Virus record (IMG/VR): IMGVR_UViG_3300029288_000120
Span: 1 to 64,000 of that record
Source: a virus
Lineage: Duplodnaviria > Caudoviricetes
Strand: one strand, 5' to 3'
Length of the DNA stretch: 64,000 nucleotides
Shown here piece by piece: positions 41,985 through 57,307 of the stretch; the stretch's first letter is position 1; each line of letters begins with the position of its first letter. The notes below the pieces were generated by a model. The model saw only the letters and a program-made list of their open reading frames with translations, was not told where the DNA came from and ran no database searches. The position numbers and the translations under genes are program-made.

Positions 41985-42293
41985 ATGCCTTGTTACGAAG
42001 TACGAATGATAAGTGTCAAGTTCAAGATAGGAAATGCTTCCTTGCTTGAACAAGCACTCAAGTCACTGGGCTTGATGCACACAGTTTTTCCAAACCGGAA
42101 ATTGATAACGACAGAAGGCATTTCCCTTGACCTGGAATCGGGCAAAGCCATTGTTTTGGATGGTTACCAAGACAGGTTAAACCAAATCAAACAAGCCTAT
42201 AGCCGCGAGGCGGTCAAAGTAGCGGCCAAGAAGTTTGCCTGGGCAACAAAAACTCAGGGCAGTAACATCACAGTCAACAAAGTGAGGTGGTAA
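41985..42293 (+). CDS. DUF1257/Ycf35-like protein
   Basis: LLEQALKSLG ... IKQAYS...V...AKK..W; near the AAA ATPase. Confidence 0.55.
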   Translation: MPCYEVRMISVKFKIGNASLLEQALKSLGLMHTVFPNRKLITTEGISLDLESGKAIVLDGYQDRLNQIKQAYSREAVKVAAKKFAWATKTQGSNITVNKVRW

Positions 42294-42294
42294 G

Positions 42295-42561
42295 ATGAAA
42301 AGCAGACTACAATCAGATGATAGGATGAGCAATACTGGCTATCATCAGAATGGGGAACCAAACTGGTGGGCCATGGTAGAAGGGAAGGGAAGCCCCCCTC
42401 AGTGGATTGACATACCCAAAACAAGAGGGGATAAGAGATTGAATTGTGTTGTGGATTTACCCCCTGGTACCAAAGTCTATTGTGGGGCCGGTAAAGGAAC
42501 ACACAAAACTGTTCGGTGTCATGTTGTAACTACAGTTTTGGAGGAAGAAAACAATGCCTAA
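42295..42561 (+). CDS. Hypothetical protein
   Basis: Operon packing. Confidence 0.55.
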   Translation: MKSRLQSDDRMSNTGYHQNGEPNWWAMVEGKGSPPQWIDIPKTRGDKRLNCVVDLPPGTKVYCGAGKGTHKTVRCHVVTTVLEEENNA

Positions 42562-42769
42562 AAATTCTTTCAACATCAATATACTAGAGGATGGTATCCT
42601 TAGTATCAACACGGATGACTTCAGTCCAGAAGTACACAAGCAGGCAGATGAGTTCATCAAATACCTTGGTGAACTTATGGGGGGAGAAATGGTTGTGAAG
42701 GAAAAACACACACACTCAAAGCAACACCAACACAGCCACGATCACGGAAAAACTTTTCATACCCATTAA
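42554..42769 (+). CDS. DUF2997-like small protein with His-rich tail
   Basis: INILEDG.L.I.TD.F...; LGELMGG; gene context. Confidence 0.5.
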   Translation: MPKNSFNINILEDGILSINTDDFSPEVHKQADEFIKYLGELMGGEMVVKEKHTHSKQHQHSHDHGKTFHTH

Positions 42770-43660: not shown

Positions 43661-45142
43661 ATGAATCTAATAGAAAGACTTCGACACGCTCGTCAAGCAG
43701 GTGTACCACTGGTATCAATTGGTACACCTGATGCAGCGGCTACCATACGTCGTGTGGTTAAAGAGCTCAACAACTCACCCATTCTATCATGGGATGTGCA
43801 GAGAGGAGTTCTATCAGCAAACGAATCTGGTCAAACAGCTCTTGGTCAGATAAATAGTGATGATACCAAGGGGAATCCCCTGGGATTGATTGATGAAGCA
43901 ATCAAGCTACCTGAGAAGACCATGCTCTTCATAATGAATGCTCCAAAAGTTGCAGAAGCCACTGGTCTGCCTTGGATTCAGGGAGTATGGAATCTCAGGG
44001 ACGAGTTCAAAGCAGACCAAAGGATGGTGATACTCCTGGGTAGGTCTTCAACAGTTCCCCCTGAGCTGGAAGGGGATGTAGTTTGTATGGAGGAGGAATT
44101 GCCAACAGTAACACAACTCACCAGCATAGTCGATTCATTGGATGATGACGCCTCCCTGGCCAGACCCAAAAGAACACCCACACCAGAAGAAGTAATCAAT
44201 AAGGCAGTGGATGCCGTTTCGGGGTTGTCAGCTTTCTCAGCAGAACAAGCTGTAGCAATGGCCATCCGAGCAGATGGCATAGATCTGGACCTTCTCTGGG
44301 ACATCAAGCGGACAATGATTGAGGAAACCCCTGGGTTATCTTGTTGGAGAGGGGGGGAAAGATTCTCAGATATTGGTGGACTTAAAAACGTCAAAGGGTA
44401 CTGCCAGTCGATGGTCAACGGTCGCAAGAAGTATGGGGCTGTGGTATTCATTGACGAGATTGAGAAGCTATTGGCAGGGGCTACAGAGGGCACTGGGGAC
44501 AGTTCCGGTGTAAGCCAGGGTTTCTTACAGGTACTCCTTACGTACATGCAAGACCACAATGTAAGTGGGATGATTTTCATCGGGCATCCAGGGGCCGGCA
44601 AATCAATGGTAGCCAAGAGCATAGGAGCCGAAGTTGGTATACCCACAATTGCCTTGGATGTCAATGCGATGAAGAGTAGTTTGGTAGGTTCAAGTGAGCA
44701 ACGTATACGAGAAGCAATGAAAGTTGTTACAGCAGTAAGTAATGACAAGCCTTTATTCGTTGCCACTTGCAACAAAATTGCAAACCTTCCCCCTGAGTTA
44801 CGGCGACGATTTACTGCTGGTACATTTTTCTTTGACCTCCCAGATTCCTCAGAGAGAGATGTCATTTGGACATACTACATGGAAAAGTATGAGTTGGAAG
44901 AACAGGAAGGTCCACTAGACGAAGGATGGACAGGGGCTGAAATTAAAGCCTGCTGTCAAGGAGCATGGGAACGCAACGTGTCACTCTTGGAAGCAGCCAA
45001 GTTCATTGTTCCAGTAGCCAAGGCTGATCCAGCCAGGATAAAGAAGCTACAAGATGAGGCTGTTGGTCGTTACATATCAGCCTCATCTGATGGAACATAC
45101 AAAACAGTAAGCACAGAGAAGAAGAGAGTAGTTCGTACTTGA
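43661..45142 (+). CDS. Ycf46-like AAA+ ATPase with permuted Walker motifs
   Basis: DIGGL, VFIDEIEK, GHPGAGKS, LVGSSE, FVATCN..LPPEL.RRF, FFFDLP, WTGAEI. Confidence 0.85.
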   Translation: MNLIERLRHARQAGVPLVSIGTPDAAATIRRVVKELNNSPILSWDVQRGVLSANESGQTALGQINSDDTKGNPLGLIDEAIKLPEKTMLFIMNAPKVAEATGLPWIQGVWNLRDEFKADQRMVILLGRSSTVPPELEGDVVCMEEELPTVTQLTSIVDSLDDDASLARPKRTPTPEEVINKAVDAVSGLSAFSAEQAVAMAIRADGIDLDLLWDIKRTMIEETPGLSCWRGGERFSDIGGLKNVKGYCQSMVNGRKKYGAVVFIDEIEKLLAGATEGTGDSSGVSQGFLQVLLTYMQDHNVSGMIFIGHPGAGKSMVAKSIGAEVGIPTIALDVNAMKSSLVGSSEQRIREAMKVVTAVSNDKPLFVATCNKIANLPPELRRRFTAGTFFFDLPDSSERDVIWTYYMEKYELEEQEGPLDEGWTGAEIKACCQGAWERNVSLLEAAKFIVPVAKADPARIKKLQDEAVGRYISASSDGTYKTVSTEKKRVVRT

Positions 45143-45197: not shown

Positions 45198-46040
45198 ATG
45201 AGTAAGTTGTTTGAGAAAACCGTATGTCTGTCAGTTACGTTTCATATGGCTGGAGACAGTAGAGTTGGTGATCTTACTAGCATAGAAACCGATGCTGACA
45301 GATCGCGACTGAACCTGAGCAAGAAGATTTTTCAGTCGAAGAACTACAGGAAGATGAGGCGTTTGCGATGGCTCACGAAGCTGTGGATAATGAATCGAGC
45401 AGTTCCCTCCCCTTTGCGACATGGAACATTCTTGATTCCTCAACCCCTCGTAGAGGAAGTGTTGGGAAAAATCAATGAAGCGGAGGAACAATTCAACAAG
45501 CTCGCTGATGAGTTCATTGAAGAGTACCCAGTGTTGGTCAAGGAAGCGAAAGACCTTCTCCAATCTCAGTTTCGAAAAGAGAATTACCCAAACCCAAAAT
45601 CCATGCGGAGTAAGTTTTGGGTATCTCGAATGTTTGTTAAGTTCGAGAACGTCAAAGGAGTTGACCAAAACAAAGAGATACAAGATGCCATTGAGGATAT
45701 CAGAGGCACTCTTCGTATGGGAATGTTAGAGCTAGTGGAGAAGCTTGGTAAGATGCTTGGTGAAGGAAAGAATGGCAGAAAGAGTGTGGTTCGAAAAGAA
45801 GCCATACAAGCCTTCAATGATTGGATGGAGTTGCTGCCCAAGCGTAATGTTTTGGATGACGAGGAGCTAAAATCCCTTGCTGAGAAGGCCAAGTCATTGA
45901 TGAAAGGGAACACCCAAAGTGATCTACGGGATGTGGAGGGCATACGCAACAAGGTTCGCAAGGGTATGGGAGATATCAGTAAGCAGCTAAGAACCATGAT
46001 TGAAGCTGCTCCCCGTCGTTCGTTTAGTTTTGAGGAGTAG
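45198..46040 (+). CDS. DUF3150-like protein
   Basis: Helical; FLIP, F..EYP.L, YP....+..KF; follows the AAA ATPase. Confidence 0.5.
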   Translation: MSKLFEKTVCLSVTFHMAGDSRVGDLTSIETDADRSRLNLSKKIFQSKNYRKMRRLRWLTKLWIMNRAVPSPLRHGTFLIPQPLVEEVLGKINEAEEQFNKLADEFIEEYPVLVKEAKDLLQSQFRKENYPNPKSMRSKFWVSRMFVKFENVKGVDQNKEIQDAIEDIRGTLRMGMLELVEKLGKMLGEGKNGRKSVVRKEAIQAFNDWMELLPKRNVLDDEELKSLAEKAKSLMKGNTQSDLRDVEGIRNKVRKGMGDISKQLRTMIEAAPRRSFSFEE

Positions 46041-46515: not shown

Positions 46516-47040
46516 ATGGAATCTGTGGTTATTGATGCAAAGAACGAGACCTACTGTGACATAGAGAAGATGCTCTACAAGATGGCTTGGCAAACTACGA
46601 AGAAGTTTGGGGGTGATTTTGAAGAGTATCTTTCAGCAGCAAACGAAGCATTTTCTGACGCCTACCTAACTTATAGGGAGGGCATGAATACATCCTTTAG
46701 TACATGGGTGTATTGGCAAGTTCGTGGCAGACTTCAACGTTCGACATTCAAGAACAAAATGGATAAGCACACAGTCAATACTGGGGAAGACATTGACCTA
46801 TCTATCTTTTCTTGTAGAGATAGTTTTGATGTATCTTCATTACTCAACGAGGTCTCCCATGATGCTCGTGTAGCCATAGAACTGATTATAGATAGCGATT
46901 TTGTGGACTTGAATCTCTCAAGCGAAATGATGTCCTGCATTCGCAGTGGCTTGTTGGTCAAACTACAAGAGATGGGTTGGTCAGTTGCCAGGGCAGTTGA
47001 TACCTTTTTTGAGATAAGGGAAGCTCTATGTCAAAGCTAG
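46516..47040 (+). CDS. Sigma-70-family (region 2) sigma factor-like protein
   Basis: DFEEYLS.A..AF..A...Y......FSTWVYWQVRG. Confidence 0.75.
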   Translation: MESVVIDAKNETYCDIEKMLYKMAWQTTKKFGGDFEEYLSAANEAFSDAYLTYREGMNTSFSTWVYWQVRGRLQRSTFKNKMDKHTVNTGEDIDLSIFSCRDSFDVSSLLNEVSHDARVAIELIIDSDFVDLNLSSEMMSCIRSGLLVKLQEMGWSVARAVDTFFEIREALCQS

Positions 47041-51134: not shown

Positions 51135-52505
51135 ATGAGCGATATAAAACCATTCAAGTTCCAAAAAGAATGTATTGAAGAACTAGAAAGGTTTAACGGC
51201 AGGGCTTTGTTAAGTGCAGATATGGGTCTAGGTAAGACCCTAATGTCCCTGTGGTCTCTGCAGAAGAACCTTAGCAGAGCCCTGCCAATCATTGTTGTTT
51301 GCCCCGCATCCATAAAATATCAGTGGAGAGGAGAAATATGGAGATGCCTTGAAATAAAGGCGTTCGTAGCAGAGGGCAGGAAGGCCACAAGGAAACAAAC
51401 AAATCCCAAGGTTATAGTAATCAACTATGACATTCTTAAAGATTGGTTACCTTGGTTAAGATCTAAGAAACCAGGTTCTGTAATACTGGACGAGTGCCAG
51501 TTCATTTCCAATCACAATACTCTACGCACCAAAGCAGTAAAGGCTCTTTGTCTTGGTGTGAATCATATCATTGCCCTTTCTGGCACACCCATGATGAACC
51601 GTCCTATGGAATTGTTTACAGTACTCAATATCTTGAAACCTGTTACTTTTTCCAGTCGTTGGTCTTACGGAATGAAATACTGTGATGGCAAAAAGAATCG
51701 CTGGGGATGGGAATTCAAAGGAGCAACACGAGTAGAAGAGTTAAATGACTTATTGTTGAAGACCTGTATGGTACGTAGAAGAAAATCAGAAGTATTGAGT
51801 GAGTTACCCAACAAGATGAGGCAAGTGGTACCGTTCAAGTTGGATAATATATCTGAGTACCAAAATGCCGATGATGATTTTATGGGTTGGTTAGAAAAGA
51901 GAGATCCAGAAGCTGTGTATAGAGCAGAACGAGCACAAACACTTGTGAAGGTTGGGTACTTACTACGACTTGCTGCTGAGTTGAAATTGAAGTATACCAT
52001 TCAATGGATAAACGACTTTCTGGAATCCACTGATAGAAAAATAGTAGTATTCACCAAGCATAGAAATATGCTAGCTGAGTTGAGAAGTGGTATTAAGTAT
52101 GTGTCTGTTACAGTTGCTGGGGGTATGAATGCTATCAAGAAGAATCAGGCAGCAAAAGCTTTTCAAACAGATGAGAACATCAGAGTGTTCTTGGGAAATA
52201 TAGAGGCAGCAGGAATAGGTTTGAATCTAACAGCAGCATCTGATGTTGTCTTTGCTGAAATGGCTTGGCGACCTACAGATCATACACAAGCTGAAGATCG
52301 CTGCCATAGAATAGGGCAGACAGATACAGTATGGGCACATTATTTGATTGCAGAAGATACAATAGAGGAAAAGCTCTGCAAGATCATCCAGGACAAGCAG
52401 AGTGTCATTTCTGACATACTGGATGGCAGGAAGATGGAAGGAGACCTGGATGTGTTTGATAGATTGATGAGATCAATTACGAAAGGAAAAGGATTGATAA
52501 AATGA
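51135..52505 (+). CDS. SNF2-family (HARP-like) helicase/translocase
   Basis: DMGLGKT, LDECQ, LSGTP, GLNLT, QAEDRCHRIGQ. Confidence 0.93.
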   Translation: MSDIKPFKFQKECIEELERFNGRALLSADMGLGKTLMSLWSLQKNLSRALPIIVVCPASIKYQWRGEIWRCLEIKAFVAEGRKATRKQTNPKVIVINYDILKDWLPWLRSKKPGSVILDECQFISNHNTLRTKAVKALCLGVNHIIALSGTPMMNRPMELFTVLNILKPVTFSSRWSYGMKYCDGKKNRWGWEFKGATRVEELNDLLLKTCMVRRRKSEVLSELPNKMRQVVPFKLDNISEYQNADDDFMGWLEKRDPEAVYRAERAQTLVKVGYLLRLAAELKLKYTIQWINDFLESTDRKIVVFTKHRNMLAELRSGIKYVSVTVAGGMNAIKKNQAAKAFQTDENIRVFLGNIEAAGIGLNLTAASDVVFAEMAWRPTDHTQAEDRCHRIGQTDTVWAHYLIAEDTIEEKLCKIIQDKQSVISDILDGRKMEGDLDVFDRLMRSITKGKGLIK

Positions 52506-52767: not shown

Positions 52768-53646
52768 ATGGACATAACCGAGATTCTTGCAGAGAGTAAT
52801 ATAGAGTACAAAGAGGCAGGTGCCCACCATCATACCCGACCGGGATGGGTAAACATTGATTGTCCAATGTGTGGTAGGGGATCAGGTAAATTCCATTTGG
52901 GTATAAACATCTCTCATGGTTATGCCAACTGTTGGAAGTGTGGACCTATCTCTCTCTTTACTATACTAAGGGAATTGACCAGTGCTTCTTATGAAGAGAT
53001 AAAGGAAGTAACAAGGGGCTATCATGGAAGAGTAGAGAAGGGCAAGAAGAAAACAGGCAAGTTAAAGATTCCTGATAACCTCACACCTTTATCAAAACAA
53101 GCTATAGAGTATCTTGTTAGTAGAAACTTCAATCCCAAAACCATAGAGAGATTGTGGCAGGTAAGATCAACAGGTTGCATAGGTCGTCTGCAATGGAGGA
53201 TATGGATACCCATATACTATCAAGGACAAGTGGTAAGCTGGACAACAAGGGCTATAGGCAATGATTCTACCAGGTATGTTACAGCTAAGCCAGAAGAGGA
53301 AAGCATGTTCCACAAGCACCTGTTGTATGGTGAGGATTATGTGAGGCATTCGATTGTAGTTACTGAGGGACCCCTTGATGTATGGGCCCTCGGCCCCGGG
53401 GCTGTTTGCACGTTTGGGCTAAATTTTTCGATTGAACAGGTGGAAAAGATATCCAAATATGCAGTTCGCACTATATGCTTTGACGCCGACAATGATCCCA
53501 AAACGCAGCAGAGGGCTAGTATGTTGTCAAAACAATTGGAGCCGTTCCCTGGTGTCACAAACGTCGTTAAATTGGAGTCTGGCAAGGATCTGGCTGAGTG
53601 TGCAGGGTGGGAATTGAATGATATTCGCAGATTATATTTAATATAG
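52768..53646 (+). CDS. DNA primase (Zn finger + TOPRIM)
   Basis: CPMC...CWKC, VTEGPLD, CFDAD, KD. Confidence 0.85.
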   Translation: MDITEILAESNIEYKEAGAHHHTRPGWVNIDCPMCGRGSGKFHLGINISHGYANCWKCGPISLFTILRELTSASYEEIKEVTRGYHGRVEKGKKKTGKLKIPDNLTPLSKQAIEYLVSRNFNPKTIERLWQVRSTGCIGRLQWRIWIPIYYQGQVVSWTTRAIGNDSTRYVTAKPEEESMFHKHLLYGEDYVRHSIVVTEGPLDVWALGPGAVCTFGLNFSIEQVEKISKYAVRTICFDADNDPKTQQRASMLSKQLEPFPGVTNVVKLESGKDLAECAGWELNDIRRLYLI

Positions 53647-55933: not shown

Positions 55934-57307
55934 ATGAAAGTCAAGTCATACGAAGGATCGGAGACAAGGAAAATCTTGTCGGCCATGATAACAAACCCTA
56001 CTGTGTGTGCAAGGGTAGCAAGTCAGTGGAAAAAAGAAGGGCTGTTCAATTCCAAGTGGGCAGATTTAGTAGGGGGTTGGTGTGTTAAACATTTCAATAA
56101 GTATGGGGAACCACCAAATGGTCAACTCAAGGTTATATTCGATAAATGGGCAGACTCAACCAAGTCAGATGAATCTACCGTTAGACTTGTCTCTAGTTTC
56201 CTGGAAGAGACCTCCAATGAGTATGACCGAGAAAAGGTTCAGGAATCAACAGAGTTTCTCCTTGACCGTGCCGGTGAGTTATTTAATAAGCAAAGAATGC
56301 AAAAGGCCATCGAGGATGCTGAGTATGAGTTAGGGCAATCCAACACTTCCAAAGCCAGAGACTTTTTAGCAAACGGAATCGAAAAAGTAGAGCTAGGAGA
56401 AGGGGCTCTCATAAAACCGGGTGAAGATTATGAGATATGGAGGGAAGCTTTTGATAAGGAAGAGACAGAACAACTTATAAGATATCCAGGGAAGGCAAAT
56501 GACTTCATTGGATCTGCAATGGTTCGTGACAGTTTGGTTTCCTTTATGGGACCAGATAAAAGTGGTAAAAGTATGTTCCTTTTAGATGCAGCTTGTAGAG
56601 CTACAAGAAACAATAGAAGAGTAGCATACTTTGAAGCAGGGGATATGAGTCAAAACCAAGTCATGCTAAGGCTGGGCCAGAGGGTGTGCAGAATGCCCAA
56701 GAAAAAAGGTAGGGTAAACATCCCCACTGATTTTGAGGATGGTAAGGTATCATGGAAGAGCAAATTGTTTGAAGAGGTGGTTACACCACAGAGAGCATTC
56801 AAAGAGTTTAAGAGATTTAGCAAGAACAAGGATCTTTTCAGGCTGAGTTGTTATCCTAACAGCACAATTGATGTTACCATGATTAACAGTGCAGTATCTG
56901 GGTGGGCGAGGGAGGGCTGGGTGGCTGACGTTGTTATAGTTGATTATGCAGATATACTTGCACCCCCACCCATGGTAAGGGATCCATTGGATCAAATTGA
57001 CACAACTTGGAAAATGCTTAGGAGAACTAGTCAGGAATTACATTGTTTGGTACTGACAGCTACACAAGCAAGTGCTAGTGCTTACATGGCTAAGGGGTTA
57101 CTGGGAAAGAGACATTTTTCAGGTAGAAAGACAAAGTTAGCTCACGTAAATGGTATGATAGGTATAAATGTCTCCGAGTATGACAAGAAAAAAGGTATTA
57201 GTAAGCTTAACTGGATTGTGAAGCGAGATGGTTTTTACATGGAGAACCGGTACGTAACTGTAGTGGGTAGTTTGAAGATCTGTAACCCTTGCATTGTTAG
57301 TGGATAA
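55934..57307 (+). CDS. DnaB-like replicative helicase
   Basis: GPDKSGKS Walker A, IVDYAD Walker B, TATQ. Confidence 0.88.
   Translation: MKVKSYEGSETRKILSAMITNPTVCARVASQWKKEGLFNSKWADLVGGWCVKHFNKYGEPPNGQLKVIFDKWADSTKSDESTVRLVSSFLEETSNEYDREKVQESTEFLLDRAGELFNKQRMQKAIEDAEYELGQSNTSKARDFLANGIEKVELGEGALIKPGEDYEIWREAFDKEETEQLIRYPGKANDFIGSAMVRDSLVSFMGPDKSGKSMFLLDAACRATRNNRRVAYFEAGDMSQNQVMLRLGQRVCRMPKKKGRVNIPTDFEDGKVSWKSKLFEEVVTPQRAFKEFKRFSKNKDLFRLSCYPNSTIDVTMINSAVSGWAREGWVADVVIVDYADILAPPPMVRDPLDQIDTTWKMLRRTSQELHCLVLTATQASASAYMAKGLLGKRHFSGRKTKLAHVNGMIGINVSEYDKKKGISKLNWIVKRDGFYMENRYVTVVGSLKICNPCIVSG

What the first reader, a model, noticed from the sequence alone, without database searches (positions are those of the whole stretch)
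43661..45142. AAA+ ATPase with Walker B upstream of Walker A
Seen: the order is DIGGL, then VVFIDEIEK..GDSSGVS..LLTYMQD (from 44441), then GHPGAGKS (44582-605), LVGSSE, FVATCN and LPPELRRRF. No DE motif occurs between Walker A and sensor 1. Known: in Ycf46-like and other classical AAA domains the Walker B segment lies between Walker A and sensor 1. Inference: the beta-alpha unit carrying Walker B has been transposed within an intact ORF. This is a rare internal permutation that keeps all catalytic motifs.
Basis: partly seen in the sequence, partly recalled or inferred. Interest (0 to 1): 0.7.

Follow-up and report, generated by a model that had tools for sequence, protein, structure and literature searches.

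The report
Phage AAA+ ATPase with swapped core
This phage gene encodes a protein-remodelling-type AAA+ ATPase in which the segment carrying the Walker B motif lies in front of the segment carrying Walker A; more than 500 diverse relatives share this rewiring of a normally fixed enzyme core, and all keep the catalytic residues.

Summary
ORF 43661-45142 (493 aa) reads DIGGL, then Walker B VVFIDEIEK (aa 261-269), then Walker A GHPGAGKS (308-315), then sensor 1 ATCN (368-371), then RRR (381-383). No DE lies between Walker A and sensor 1.

It is not an assembly artefact. All 528 aligned homologs (35-85% identity) share the order. They include cultured Tunturiibacter phage Tunturi_3 gp103 and a copy in the Nitrospira moscoviensis chromosome. 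D265/E266, K314, N371 and R383 are essentially invariant.

Normal-order phage relatives (Corndog gp96, RHph_I4, HJ05, Javan368) share the N-terminal domain. Swapping aa 259-303 and 304-364 back in silico raises blastp scores against them by 40-55 bits. An AlphaFold model (pLDDT 92) and residue couplings indicate that the ordinary AAA+ fold and ATP site are kept.

The protein is a Cdc48-like two-domain AAA protein with a dead first domain. It sits in a conserved module with DUF3150-like and DUF1257-like genes. Its function is unknown.

I found no paper describing this permutation. The scan has already reported the same family on other DNA (e1-5344617). Verdict: a real, ancient, apparently single-origin segment swap, and a new variant of a known kind.

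The parts
43661..45142 (+). Whole ORF, 493 aa: two-domain AAA protein (P0001)
   Evidence: PF00004 scores 60.6 bits. The AlphaFold2 model has pLDDT 92.1. The whole model superposes on Cdc48 D1+D2 with Z 18.9 and 393 aligned residues.
43661..44326 (+). N-terminal domain (aa 1-222): degenerate AAA-like alpha/beta domain plus helical lid, with no P-loop
   Evidence: Secondary structure. It aligns to D1 when the whole model is laid on Cdc48/p97. Normal-order phage relatives share it (blastp from aa 5 or 13 onward).
44327..44434 (+). Linker and helix alpha0 with DIGGL (aa 237-241). It is about 15-19 aa shorter than in normal-order relatives.
   Evidence: G240 is invariant.
44435..44569 (+). Displaced unit (aa 259-303): strand beta3 with Walker B D265/E266, the pore-loop-2 region GDSSGVS, and helix alpha3 ending in MQD
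   Evidence: It aligns to VAT 380-429, which lies after Walker A in VAT. D265 is kept in 403/408 and E266 in 408/408 members. Strand 260-264 and helix 284-298 are predicted. Couplings 260-360, 262-366, 267-368 and 268-310 were found.
44570..44752 (+). Walker A unit (aa 304-364): beta1, P-loop GHPGAGKS, alpha1, beta2, pore loop 1 (L341 V342 G343), alpha2
   Evidence: It aligns to VAT 321-375. K314 is kept in 408/408 and S/T315 in 408/408 members. Secondary structure.
44753..44836 (+). beta4 with sensor 1 (T369 C370 N371), alpha4 with arginine fingers R382/R383, beta5
   Evidence: N371 is kept in 407/408 and R383 in 407/408 members. Couplings 306-391 and 307-373 were found.
44837..45142 (+). Helical lid subdomain (with WTGAEI, aa 423-428) and C-terminal tail
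   Evidence: The fold alignment to Vps4 and p97 D2 runs to aa 475-480.
45198..46040 (+). Conserved neighbour: DUF3150-like protein, 280 aa
   Evidence: PF11348 E 1.1e-7. A homolog lies within 4 kb in 78/81 viral loci and 59/80 genome loci. The Tunturi_3 homolog gives E 2.9e-81.
41985..42293 (+). Conserved neighbour: DUF1257 (Ycf35)-like protein, 102 aa
   Evidence: The family profile A2 matches the true DUF1257 set A3 by hhalign at probability 95.2%, E 2.7e-8. 20/27 members of A3 hit PF06868. A DUF1257-like gene is present in 70/81 viral loci.
42554..42769 (+). Small 71-aa gene recurring in the module. It looks DUF2997-like by eye only.
   Evidence: Its cluster occurs in 19 loci and a second small-gene cluster in 32 loci. 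Pfam did not confirm DUF2997.

Best explanation
The gene encodes a member of a large phage and prophage clade of Ycf46-like, Cdc48-like two-domain AAA ATPases. Two adjacent blocks of the active AAA core have changed places in the chain. The order is alpha0, then [beta3-Walker B-alpha3], then [beta1-Walker A-alpha1-beta2-alpha2], then beta4 (sensor 1), instead of the universal order with the bracketed blocks reversed.

Shown: the order is real, it is shared by every close and distant family member examined, and all catalytic residues are under strong conservation.

Inferred, with good support: the three-dimensional fold is the ordinary one, with sheet order 5-1-4-3-2. Only three loop connections are rewired: alpha0 to beta3, alpha3 to beta1, and alpha2 to beta4. 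All three crossovers run in the same direction as in the normal fold. So the P-loop K314/S315, Walker B D265/E266 and sensor 1 N371 still meet at one ATP site. The arginine fingers R382/R383 of the neighbouring subunit would complete that site.

Inferred: the protein forms a ring and uses ATP hydrolysis to remodel a protein substrate through pore loop 1 (L341-V342-G343). It acts within a conserved phage module with a DUF1257-like and a DUF3150-like protein.

Inferred origin: one ancient event, most simply a tandem duplication of the two blocks followed by loss of the outer copies.
For: Order in the sequence.

Conservation: 120 homologs at 45-81% identity are colinear with invariant D265, E266, K314, T369, C370, N371, R382 and R383. 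Among 408 aligned members, E266 and K314 are kept in 408/408, and N371 and R383 in 407/408. A further 120 neighbours of Tunturi_3 gp103 show the same. In the regex scans, 71/80 IMG/VR loci and 71/80 GTDB genome loci were called Walker B before Walker A, the other 9 in each set could not be called, and none read in normal order.

Cultured carriers: Tunturi_3 gp103 and the Nitrospira moscoviensis chromosome.

Normal-order relatives have the same N-domain. Undoing the swap in silico raises blastp bits from 92 to 133, 81 to 124, 67 to 122 and 67 to 107. The result is a nearly gap-free alignment.

Fold: the AlphaFold2 model has pLDDT 92.1 with the expected strands and helices. The AAA domain superposes on Vps4 (Z 17.2, rmsd 2.8 A, 208 aligned) and p97 D2 (Z 16.7, rmsd 2.6 A, 199 aligned of a 254-residue range). 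The unaligned remainder is about the size of the displaced unit.

Mean-field DCA on 408 sequences (Neff 276) gives top couplings 260-360 (rank 1), 267-368, 262-366, 268-310, 287-346, 295-357, 289-377 and 306-391. These are the contacts expected if beta3 lies beside beta4, Walker B beside the P-loop, and alpha3 between alpha2 and alpha4.

The alpha2-to-beta4 linker is 4 aa longer than the alpha2-to-beta3 linker of normal relatives.

Single origin: permuted and normal-order sequences separate on one branch with SH-aLRT 100 and one change of state.

Module.

Independent contigs bridge all three junctions.
Against: There is no experimental structure or ATPase assay for any member. I could not read the model's coordinates, so the sheet order is inferred from couplings, secondary structure and superposition statistics, not seen directly. 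AlphaFold and DCA draw on the same covariation and are not fully independent. DCA cannot tell contacts within a subunit from contacts between subunits. Pore loop 1 lacks the usual aromatic residue. No function or substrate is known, and no physical link to the neighbouring gene products has been demonstrated. The nearest normal-order relatives found are only 22-29% identical, so the tree says little about when the event happened.
Confidence: 0.8

Rival explanations
1. Assembly or frame artefact: a mis-joined contig or local rearrangement in this one metagenomic assembly produced the odd order.
For: The window comes from a metagenome-derived IMG/VR record. The only run holding the stretch identically may be its own source.
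Against: All 528 homologs from hundreds of independent assemblies have the same order and the same junctions. So do an isolate phage genome and a complete bacterial chromosome. Contigs of a different landfill study (X5) bridge all three junctions: 44341-44476, 44507-44656 and 44668-44895. Contigs of a groundwater study (X2) bridge junctions 1 and 3.
Confidence: 0.01
2. The upstream Walker B belongs to a separate, preceding domain, and the C-terminal AAA domain uses a cryptic acidic residue at the normal place.
For: The protein does have a preceding AAA-like domain. An invariant D333 follows beta2.
Against: The N-domain has its own five strands and lid, ending near aa 222. The segment aa 259-303 follows DIGGL/alpha0 of the second domain. 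D333 is equally present in normal-order relatives that have their own Walker B. No strand exists between alpha2 (342-360) and the sensor-1 strand (364-370) to carry a Walker B. Couplings tie 262 to 366, 267 to 368 and 268 to 310.
Confidence: 0.03
3. Segment-swapped assembly: the displaced Walker B unit inserts into the neighbouring subunit's core, so each ATP site is built from two chains in a new way.
For: DCA cannot separate contacts within a chain from contacts between chains. Only a monomer was modelled.
Against: The linkers are short and sit at strand starts: about 3-4 aa between alpha3 and beta1, and 4 aa between alpha2 and beta4. This suits the rewiring within one chain. The monomer model is confident throughout the core, with pLDDT over 90.
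Confidence: 0.06
4. The protein is a catalytically dead scaffold (pseudo-ATPase) in which the motifs persist only as structural relics after the rearrangement.
For: No activity data exist. Pore loop 1 is non-aromatic. R382 varies in about 5-13% of members.
Against: The Walker A Lys, Walker B Asp-Glu, sensor 1 Asn and R383 are essentially invariant across sequences as little as 35% identical. That pattern is the signature of selection on catalysis. Inteins have homed into the P-loop and sensor-1 sites of five members. From general knowledge, inteins typically sit in indispensable catalytic sites.
Confidence: 0.08

Closest known systems
Normal-order phage Ycf46-like AAA ATPases: Mycobacterium phage Corndog gp96, Rhizobium phage RHph_I4 EVC24_084, Aeromonas phage HJ05 gp65, Streptococcus satellite Javan368_0002 (JGI label 'SpoVK/Ycf46/Vps4 family AAA+-type ATPase')
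   Same: They have the same two-domain build with a shared N-terminal domain. They share the motif vocabulary: DxGGL, GDSGVS, (T/W)MQ(D/E), ATxN, LPxE(L/F)LRR. HJ05 and RHph_I4 have a DUF1257 neighbour. Corndog gp95 is a weak DUF3150-like neighbour.
   Different: They keep the universal order Walker A, then Walker B, then sensor 1. Identity is only 22-29%, even after the swap is undone. They fall on the other side of a fully supported branch.
Classical-clade AAA proteins: Cdc48/p97/VAT (D1-D2), Vps4, spastin/fidgetin
   Same: These are the best sequence and fold matches. The whole model fits Cdc48 D1+D2 with Z 18.9. The AAA domain fits Vps4 with Z 17.2 and p97 D2 with Z 16.7 at rmsd 2.5-2.8 A. 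The protein shares the P-loop, Walker B DE, sensor 1 Asn, paired arginines and lid with them.
   Different: The chain order of the core elements differs. The first domain is degenerate. Pore loop 1 is Leu-Val-Gly rather than aromatic-hydrophobic-Gly. The protein is phage-encoded and its substrate is unknown.
Circularly permuted GTPases (YlqF/YjeQ/YawG group; from general knowledge, not tested here)
   Same: They are a natural, family-wide reordering of nucleotide-binding motifs in a P-loop NTPase that keeps the fold and the activity.
   Different: Those are true circular permutations (G4-G5-G1-G2-G3) of a TRAFAC GTPase. Here the termini stay put and two internal neighbouring blocks swap, in an AAA+ (ASCE) ATPase.
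PHROG phrog_8638 (unknown function)
   Same: It is the best phage-family profile match, E 2.2e-45.
   Different: The match is broken into four stretches, as expected if the profile is in normal order. I could not inspect this.

Membership tests
AAA+ classical clade (Pfam PF00004) | Profile score above the curated cut-off | tested here: met
   60.6 bits against a cut-off of 21.2, but split into two stretches.
AAA+ classical clade (Pfam PF00004) | Walker A GxxGxGK[ST] | tested here: met
   GHPGAGKS at aa 308-315. K314 is kept in 408/408 and S/T315 in 408/408 members.
AAA+ classical clade (Pfam PF00004) | Walker B hhhhDE | tested here: met
   VVFIDE at aa 261-266. E266 is kept in 408/408 members. 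The motif is present but lies N-terminal to Walker A.
AAA+ classical clade (Pfam PF00004) | Sensor 1 polar residue on beta4 and the second region of homology with arginine fingers | tested here: met
   N371 is kept in 407/408, R383 in 407/408 and R382 in 388/408 members.
AAA+ classical clade (Pfam PF00004) | Chain order beta1(Walker A)-alpha1-beta2-alpha2-beta3(Walker B)-alpha3-beta4(sensor 1) | tested here: not met
   The order here is beta3-alpha3-beta1-alpha1-beta2-alpha2-beta4. It works like a classical AAA domain but departs from the family's defining topology in sequence.
AAA+ classical clade (Pfam PF00004) | Three-dimensional alpha/beta core with sheet order 5-1-4-3-2 plus helical lid | tested here: inconclusive
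   Superposition on Vps4 and p97 D2 (Z about 17, rmsd 2.5-2.8 A) and the couplings fit this fold. The model's coordinates could not be read to see the sheet order directly.
Ycf46-like two-domain AAA ATPases | Shared N-terminal domain in front of a single active AAA domain | tested here: met
   blastp to the normal-order phage members starts at aa 5-13. Sources label related proteins as SpoVK/Ycf46/Vps4 family. An Atlas neighbour cluster is named ycf46.
Ycf46-like two-domain AAA ATPases | Direct similarity to cyanobacterial or plastid Ycf46 itself | not tested
Circularly permuted P-loop NTPases (cpGTPase type) | Old termini joined and new termini opened inside the domain | tested here: not met
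   The N- and C-terminal parts (alpha0; beta4 to lid) stay in place. Only two internal blocks swap.

The most novel reading that the evidence does not exclude
This family is the first recognised natural AAA+ ATPase whose core is non-circularly permuted, with the beta3-alpha3 unit moved ahead of beta1. It folds to the normal active site and is a working motor. If so, the chain order of the AAA+ core is not a structural necessity. The move also wires the alpha3 end (M296-Q297-D298, the place of the inter-subunit signalling motif of classical AAA proteins) directly to the P-loop strand, which may change how subunits communicate.
Probability: 0.55. Interest if true: 0.75.

Novelty: new variant of a known kind. 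Interest (0 to 1): 0.62.

Why it matters
The order Walker A, then Walker B, then sensor 1 is treated as a fixed property of AAA+ and related ASCE ATPases. Profile models and annotation pipelines rely on it. Here they report a split or partial AAA domain and call the protein simply 'AAA family ATPase'.

A large, old, strongly conserved family that breaks this order while keeping every catalytic residue is a natural experiment. It bears on how tolerant the fold and its allostery are to rewiring, and on how such swaps arise. It is directly testable: a cultured phage (Tunturi_3) and a cultured bacterium (Nitrospira moscoviensis) carry it.

The finding also defines a widespread phage module of unknown function, made of the AAA ATPase plus DUF1257-like and DUF3150-like genes.

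Tried and rejected
- Complex prediction of the ATPase (A1) with the DUF3150-like neighbour (A5) gave no verdict (score 0.00, controls not run). This is no evidence either way.
- Fold searches with the DUF3150-like model (pLDDT 91.8) gave no Foldseek match with E below 0.08. VIA-wide gave only generic helical-bundle rows, Z at most 10. Its fold stays unassigned.
- The Pfam DUF2997 model (PF11211) found nothing in the phage record. Per-member Pfam scans of the small-gene family found nothing consistent. The DUF2997 likeness is by eye only.
- The Pfam DUF3150 model rang in none of five phage records, nor in the controls, so that search was uninformative. My own profile found the Tunturi_3 and (weakly) the Corndog homologs instead.
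- NCBIfam gave only local P-loop matches, far under the cut-offs (CdvC, IteA and others).
- PHROGs and Pfam gave nothing for the other close neighbours.
- I looked for relics of a duplication intermediate, meaning inserts of 8 aa or more at the three junctions, in about 528 members. None were found.
- Four literature searches for permuted AAA+ or Walker B before Walker A found no relevant paper. The library is incomplete, so this is not proof of novelty.
- No RNA holder is listed for the gene. One run whose library is described as RNA-Seq holds a 152-nt near-identical contig. I do not count this as expression evidence.
- Strict motif regexes missed many members. I replaced them with profile alignment.
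- The coordinates of the predicted model are not exposed, so the sheet order could not be read directly.

Full report
**1. What is in the sequence**

window:43661-45142(+) is a single 493-aa ORF. Reading along the chain:
- DIGGL, aa 237-241
- VVFIDEIEK, aa 261-269 (Walker B D265/E266; nt 44441 onward)
- GDSSGVS, aa 279-285
- LLTYMQD, aa 292-298
- GHPGAGKS, aa 308-315 (Walker A; nt 44582-44605)
- SLVGSSE, aa 340-346 (pore loop 1 region)
- FVATCN, aa 366-371 (sensor 1 N371)
- LPPELRRRF, aa 376-384 (arginine fingers)

No DE occurs between Walker A and sensor 1.

phmmer against PDB sequences shows the inversion directly. Query aa 302-358 aligns to VAT residues 321-375, while query aa 259-309 aligns to VAT 380-429. 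Pfam's AAA model matches well over its cut-off, but in two pieces.

**2. Not an artefact, and not a one-off**

A protein search returned 1,460 significant hits. The best 120 (45-81% identity, full-length, colinear) all carry the same order. D265, E266, E268, K269, D280, G283, K314, T369, C370, N371, R382 and R383 are invariant.

The one relative among isolate phage genomes, Tunturiibacter phage Tunturi_3 gp103 (35% identity), is permuted too. So are its 120 nearest database neighbours.

IMG/VR holds at least 277 relatives and the GTDB species genomes at least 440. The genome copies are mostly in Acidobacteriota and Nitrospirota, and also in Myxococcota, Planctomycetota and Armatimonadota. One lies in the complete chromosome of Nitrospira moscoviensis NSP M-1, which reads ...VVFLDEIEK...GPPGTCKS...IATSN.... 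A motif regex called 71 of the 80 loci fetched from each collection as Walker B before Walker A. The other 9 in each set could not be called, and none read in normal order.

A profile search of 1.84 billion cluster representatives gave 3,318 hits with E under 1e-30. The best 150 all score over 569 bits.

I aligned 408 and then 120 further members to the family profile:
- E266 and K314 are kept in every sequence.
- N371 and R383 are kept in all but one.
- D265 is kept in 522 of 528 (the rest have Glu).

Logan contigs of another landfill study bridge all three block junctions, and contigs of a groundwater study bridge junctions 1 and 3, at 90-96% identity. The window's record is an IMG/VR virus contig of 93,208 bp that CheckV rates complete.

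**3. It is a swap relative to normal-order kin**

Four more distant phage proteins share the N-terminal domain but have the universal order Walker A, then Walker B, then sensor 1:
- Javan368_0002
- Aeromonas HJ05 gp65
- Corndog gp96
- Rhizobium RHph_I4 EVC24_084

I exchanged aa 259-303 and 304-364 of P0001 in a script and repeated blastp. This raised the scores from 92 to 133, 81 to 124, 67 to 122 and 67 to 107 bits.

The rearranged sequence then aligns to the four almost without gaps. Two differences remain. The linker after alpha0 is shorter by 15-19 aa. There are four extra residues at the end of alpha2 (SNDKP against SP/AP).

All three junctions fall at the starts of beta strands.

In a maximum-likelihood tree of 46 permuted (de-permuted for alignment) and 34 normal-order sequences, the two kinds separate on one branch with SH-aLRT 100 and one change of state. 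This fits a single origin. It does not date the event, because the nearest normal-order sequences found are only 22-29% identical.

No member retains an insert that could be a leftover duplicated block. Duplication of the two blocks followed by loss of the outer copies is the simplest route, but it is inference.

**4. The fold**

An AlphaFold2 model built on 66 family sequences is confident (mean pLDDT 92.1, pTM 0.82). In the C-terminal domain it predicts, in chain order:
- helix 242-252 (alpha0)
- strand 260-264 (Walker B strand)
- helix 284-298
- strand 302-308, followed by the P-loop
- helix 314-325
- strand 329-332
- helix 342-360
- strand 364-370 (sensor 1)
- helix 378-383
- strand 388-391
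- the lid

Foldseek and VIA-align place the whole protein on Cdc48/p97/Drg1 D1+D2 (Z 18.9, 393 residues aligned). So the N-terminal 222 residues are a degenerate AAA-like first domain.

The second domain fits Vps4 (Z 17.2, rmsd 2.8 A, 208 aligned) and p97 D2 (Z 16.7, rmsd 2.6 A, 199 aligned of a 254-residue range). A sequential aligner must skip the displaced unit, and the unaligned remainder is about that size.

I could not read the coordinates, so I computed mean-field direct couplings on 408 members (Neff 276). The strongest long-range coupling is 260-360. It joins the start of the Walker B strand to the end of alpha2. These residues are neighbours in a normal chain but 100 residues apart here. 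Other high couplings:
- 262-366 and 267-368 (Walker B strand beside the sensor-1 strand)
- 268-310 (Walker B region beside the P-loop)
- 287-346, 291-349 and 295-357 (alpha3 on alpha2)
- 289-377 (alpha3 beside alpha4)
- 306-391 (beta1 beside beta5)

This is the contact pattern of the ordinary 5-1-4-3-2 sheet. By topology, all three new connections move in the same direction as the ones they replace. Right-handed crossovers and the faces on which the helices lie are therefore preserved. The four extra residues after alpha2 fit the need to step over one more strand. These last points are inference.

**5. How it most likely works**

With every catalytic residue conserved, the protein is most likely an active, ring-forming, classical-type AAA motor. 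ATP would bind between K314/S315, D265/E266 and N371, and R382/R383 would act in trans.

Pore loop 1 (L341-V342-G343, nearly invariant) and the flexible pore-loop-2 region (aa 270-283, lowest pLDDT) are kept. This points to substrate threading or remodelling.

One consequence of the swap is that the end of alpha3 (M296-Q297-D298, nearly invariant) now leads straight into the P-loop strand instead of the sensor-1 strand. In classical AAA proteins this position holds the inter-subunit signalling motif. Whether the change alters communication between subunits is open.

**6. Context**

The gene lies in the early/replication part of the phage. Nearby genes are:
- a sigma-like gene, 46516-47040
- an SNF2 helicase, 51135-52505
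- a primase, 52768-53646
- a DnaB-like helicase, 55934-57307

Across 81 viral loci the ATPase is accompanied by a DUF3150-like gene in 78 (here 45198-46040) and by a DUF1257 (Ycf35)-like gene in 70 (here 41985-42293). Small genes like 42554-42769 recur too. In genome loci the DUF3150-like gene is present in 59 of 80, and many of the rest have short flanks.

Tunturi_3 has both partners. gp102 is DUF1257. gp96, annotated 'HNH endonuclease', is the DUF3150-like protein.

Normal-order relatives HJ05 and RHph_I4 also have a DUF1257 gene about 1 kb downstream, and Corndog gp95 is a weak DUF3150-like match (E 5e-5). So the module is older than the permutation. What it does is unknown, and the DUF3150-like model matches no solved fold clearly.

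**7. Comparison and novelty**

The protein works like a classical AAA domain and belongs with Ycf46-like phage ATPases. It fails one defining feature of the family, the chain order of the core.

It is not a circular permutation of the cpGTPase kind, because the termini stay in place.

Four full-text searches found no description of such an AAA+ protein.

This scan has already met the same family on other DNA. A follow-up report, e1-5344617, reached the same reading, and first-reader notes e1-5939303 and e1-5935687 describe further copies. My analysis was made independently on this window and agrees. It adds the conserved gene module, the coupling analysis, the read check, the tree and the inteins.

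I rate it a new variant of a known kind. It is of real interest to people who study AAA+ structure and protein-fold evolution. Its biological role is still unknown.

Noticed in passing
Homologs P0129, P0221, P0211, P0203, P0231: Five family members carry inteins at three sites inside catalytic motifs. In P0129, P0221 and P0211 the intein lies between T369 and C370 of sensor 1 (IAT|C...HN|CN); two of these carry LAGLIDADG and one is a mini-intein. In P0203 it lies inside the P-loop (GPPG|C...HN|CAKS) and carries an HNH domain. In P0231 it lies between K314 and S315. The family's near-invariant C370 is the +1 residue of the first site.
   Followed up: partly
L001 / PP885686.1 67395-68354 (Tunturi_3 gp96): This gene is annotated 'HNH endonuclease', but it is the DUF3150-like partner protein of the module (tblastn 4e-22, profile E 2.9e-81). 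The annotation is probably wrong.
   Followed up: partly
window:43661-44326 (aa 1-222 of the ATPase): The N-terminal domain superposes on the D1 ring domain of Cdc48/p97 when the whole model is aligned. It lacks Walker motifs (the P-loop place reads GTPDAAAT). So the protein is a type-II-like AAA protein with a dead first domain.
   Followed up: partly
window:59207-60112: A phage-encoded GTP cyclohydrolase (phrog_2197, E 1e-66) lies next to the replication genes. In other phages this enzyme feeds 7-deazaguanine DNA modification (from general knowledge). The rest of that pathway was not looked for.
   Followed up: no
window:46516-47040: A small sigma-70 region-2-like protein (phrog_351 E 5e-5; Pfam Sigma70_r2 below cut-off) lies two genes downstream of the ATPase. 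It is conserved only in the closest relatives (6 of 80 loci).
   Followed up: no
window:44345-44495: A wastewater run whose library is described as metagenomic RNA-Seq cDNA holds a 152-nt contig with one mismatch, at depth 59, across the first block junction. This shows that the phage or a near-identical one occurs there. It is not proof of transcription.
   Followed up: no
window:26559-30614: A 1,351-aa ORF with no PHROG match at E 1e-5. It is the largest gene in this part of the window and is unannotated.
   Followed up: no
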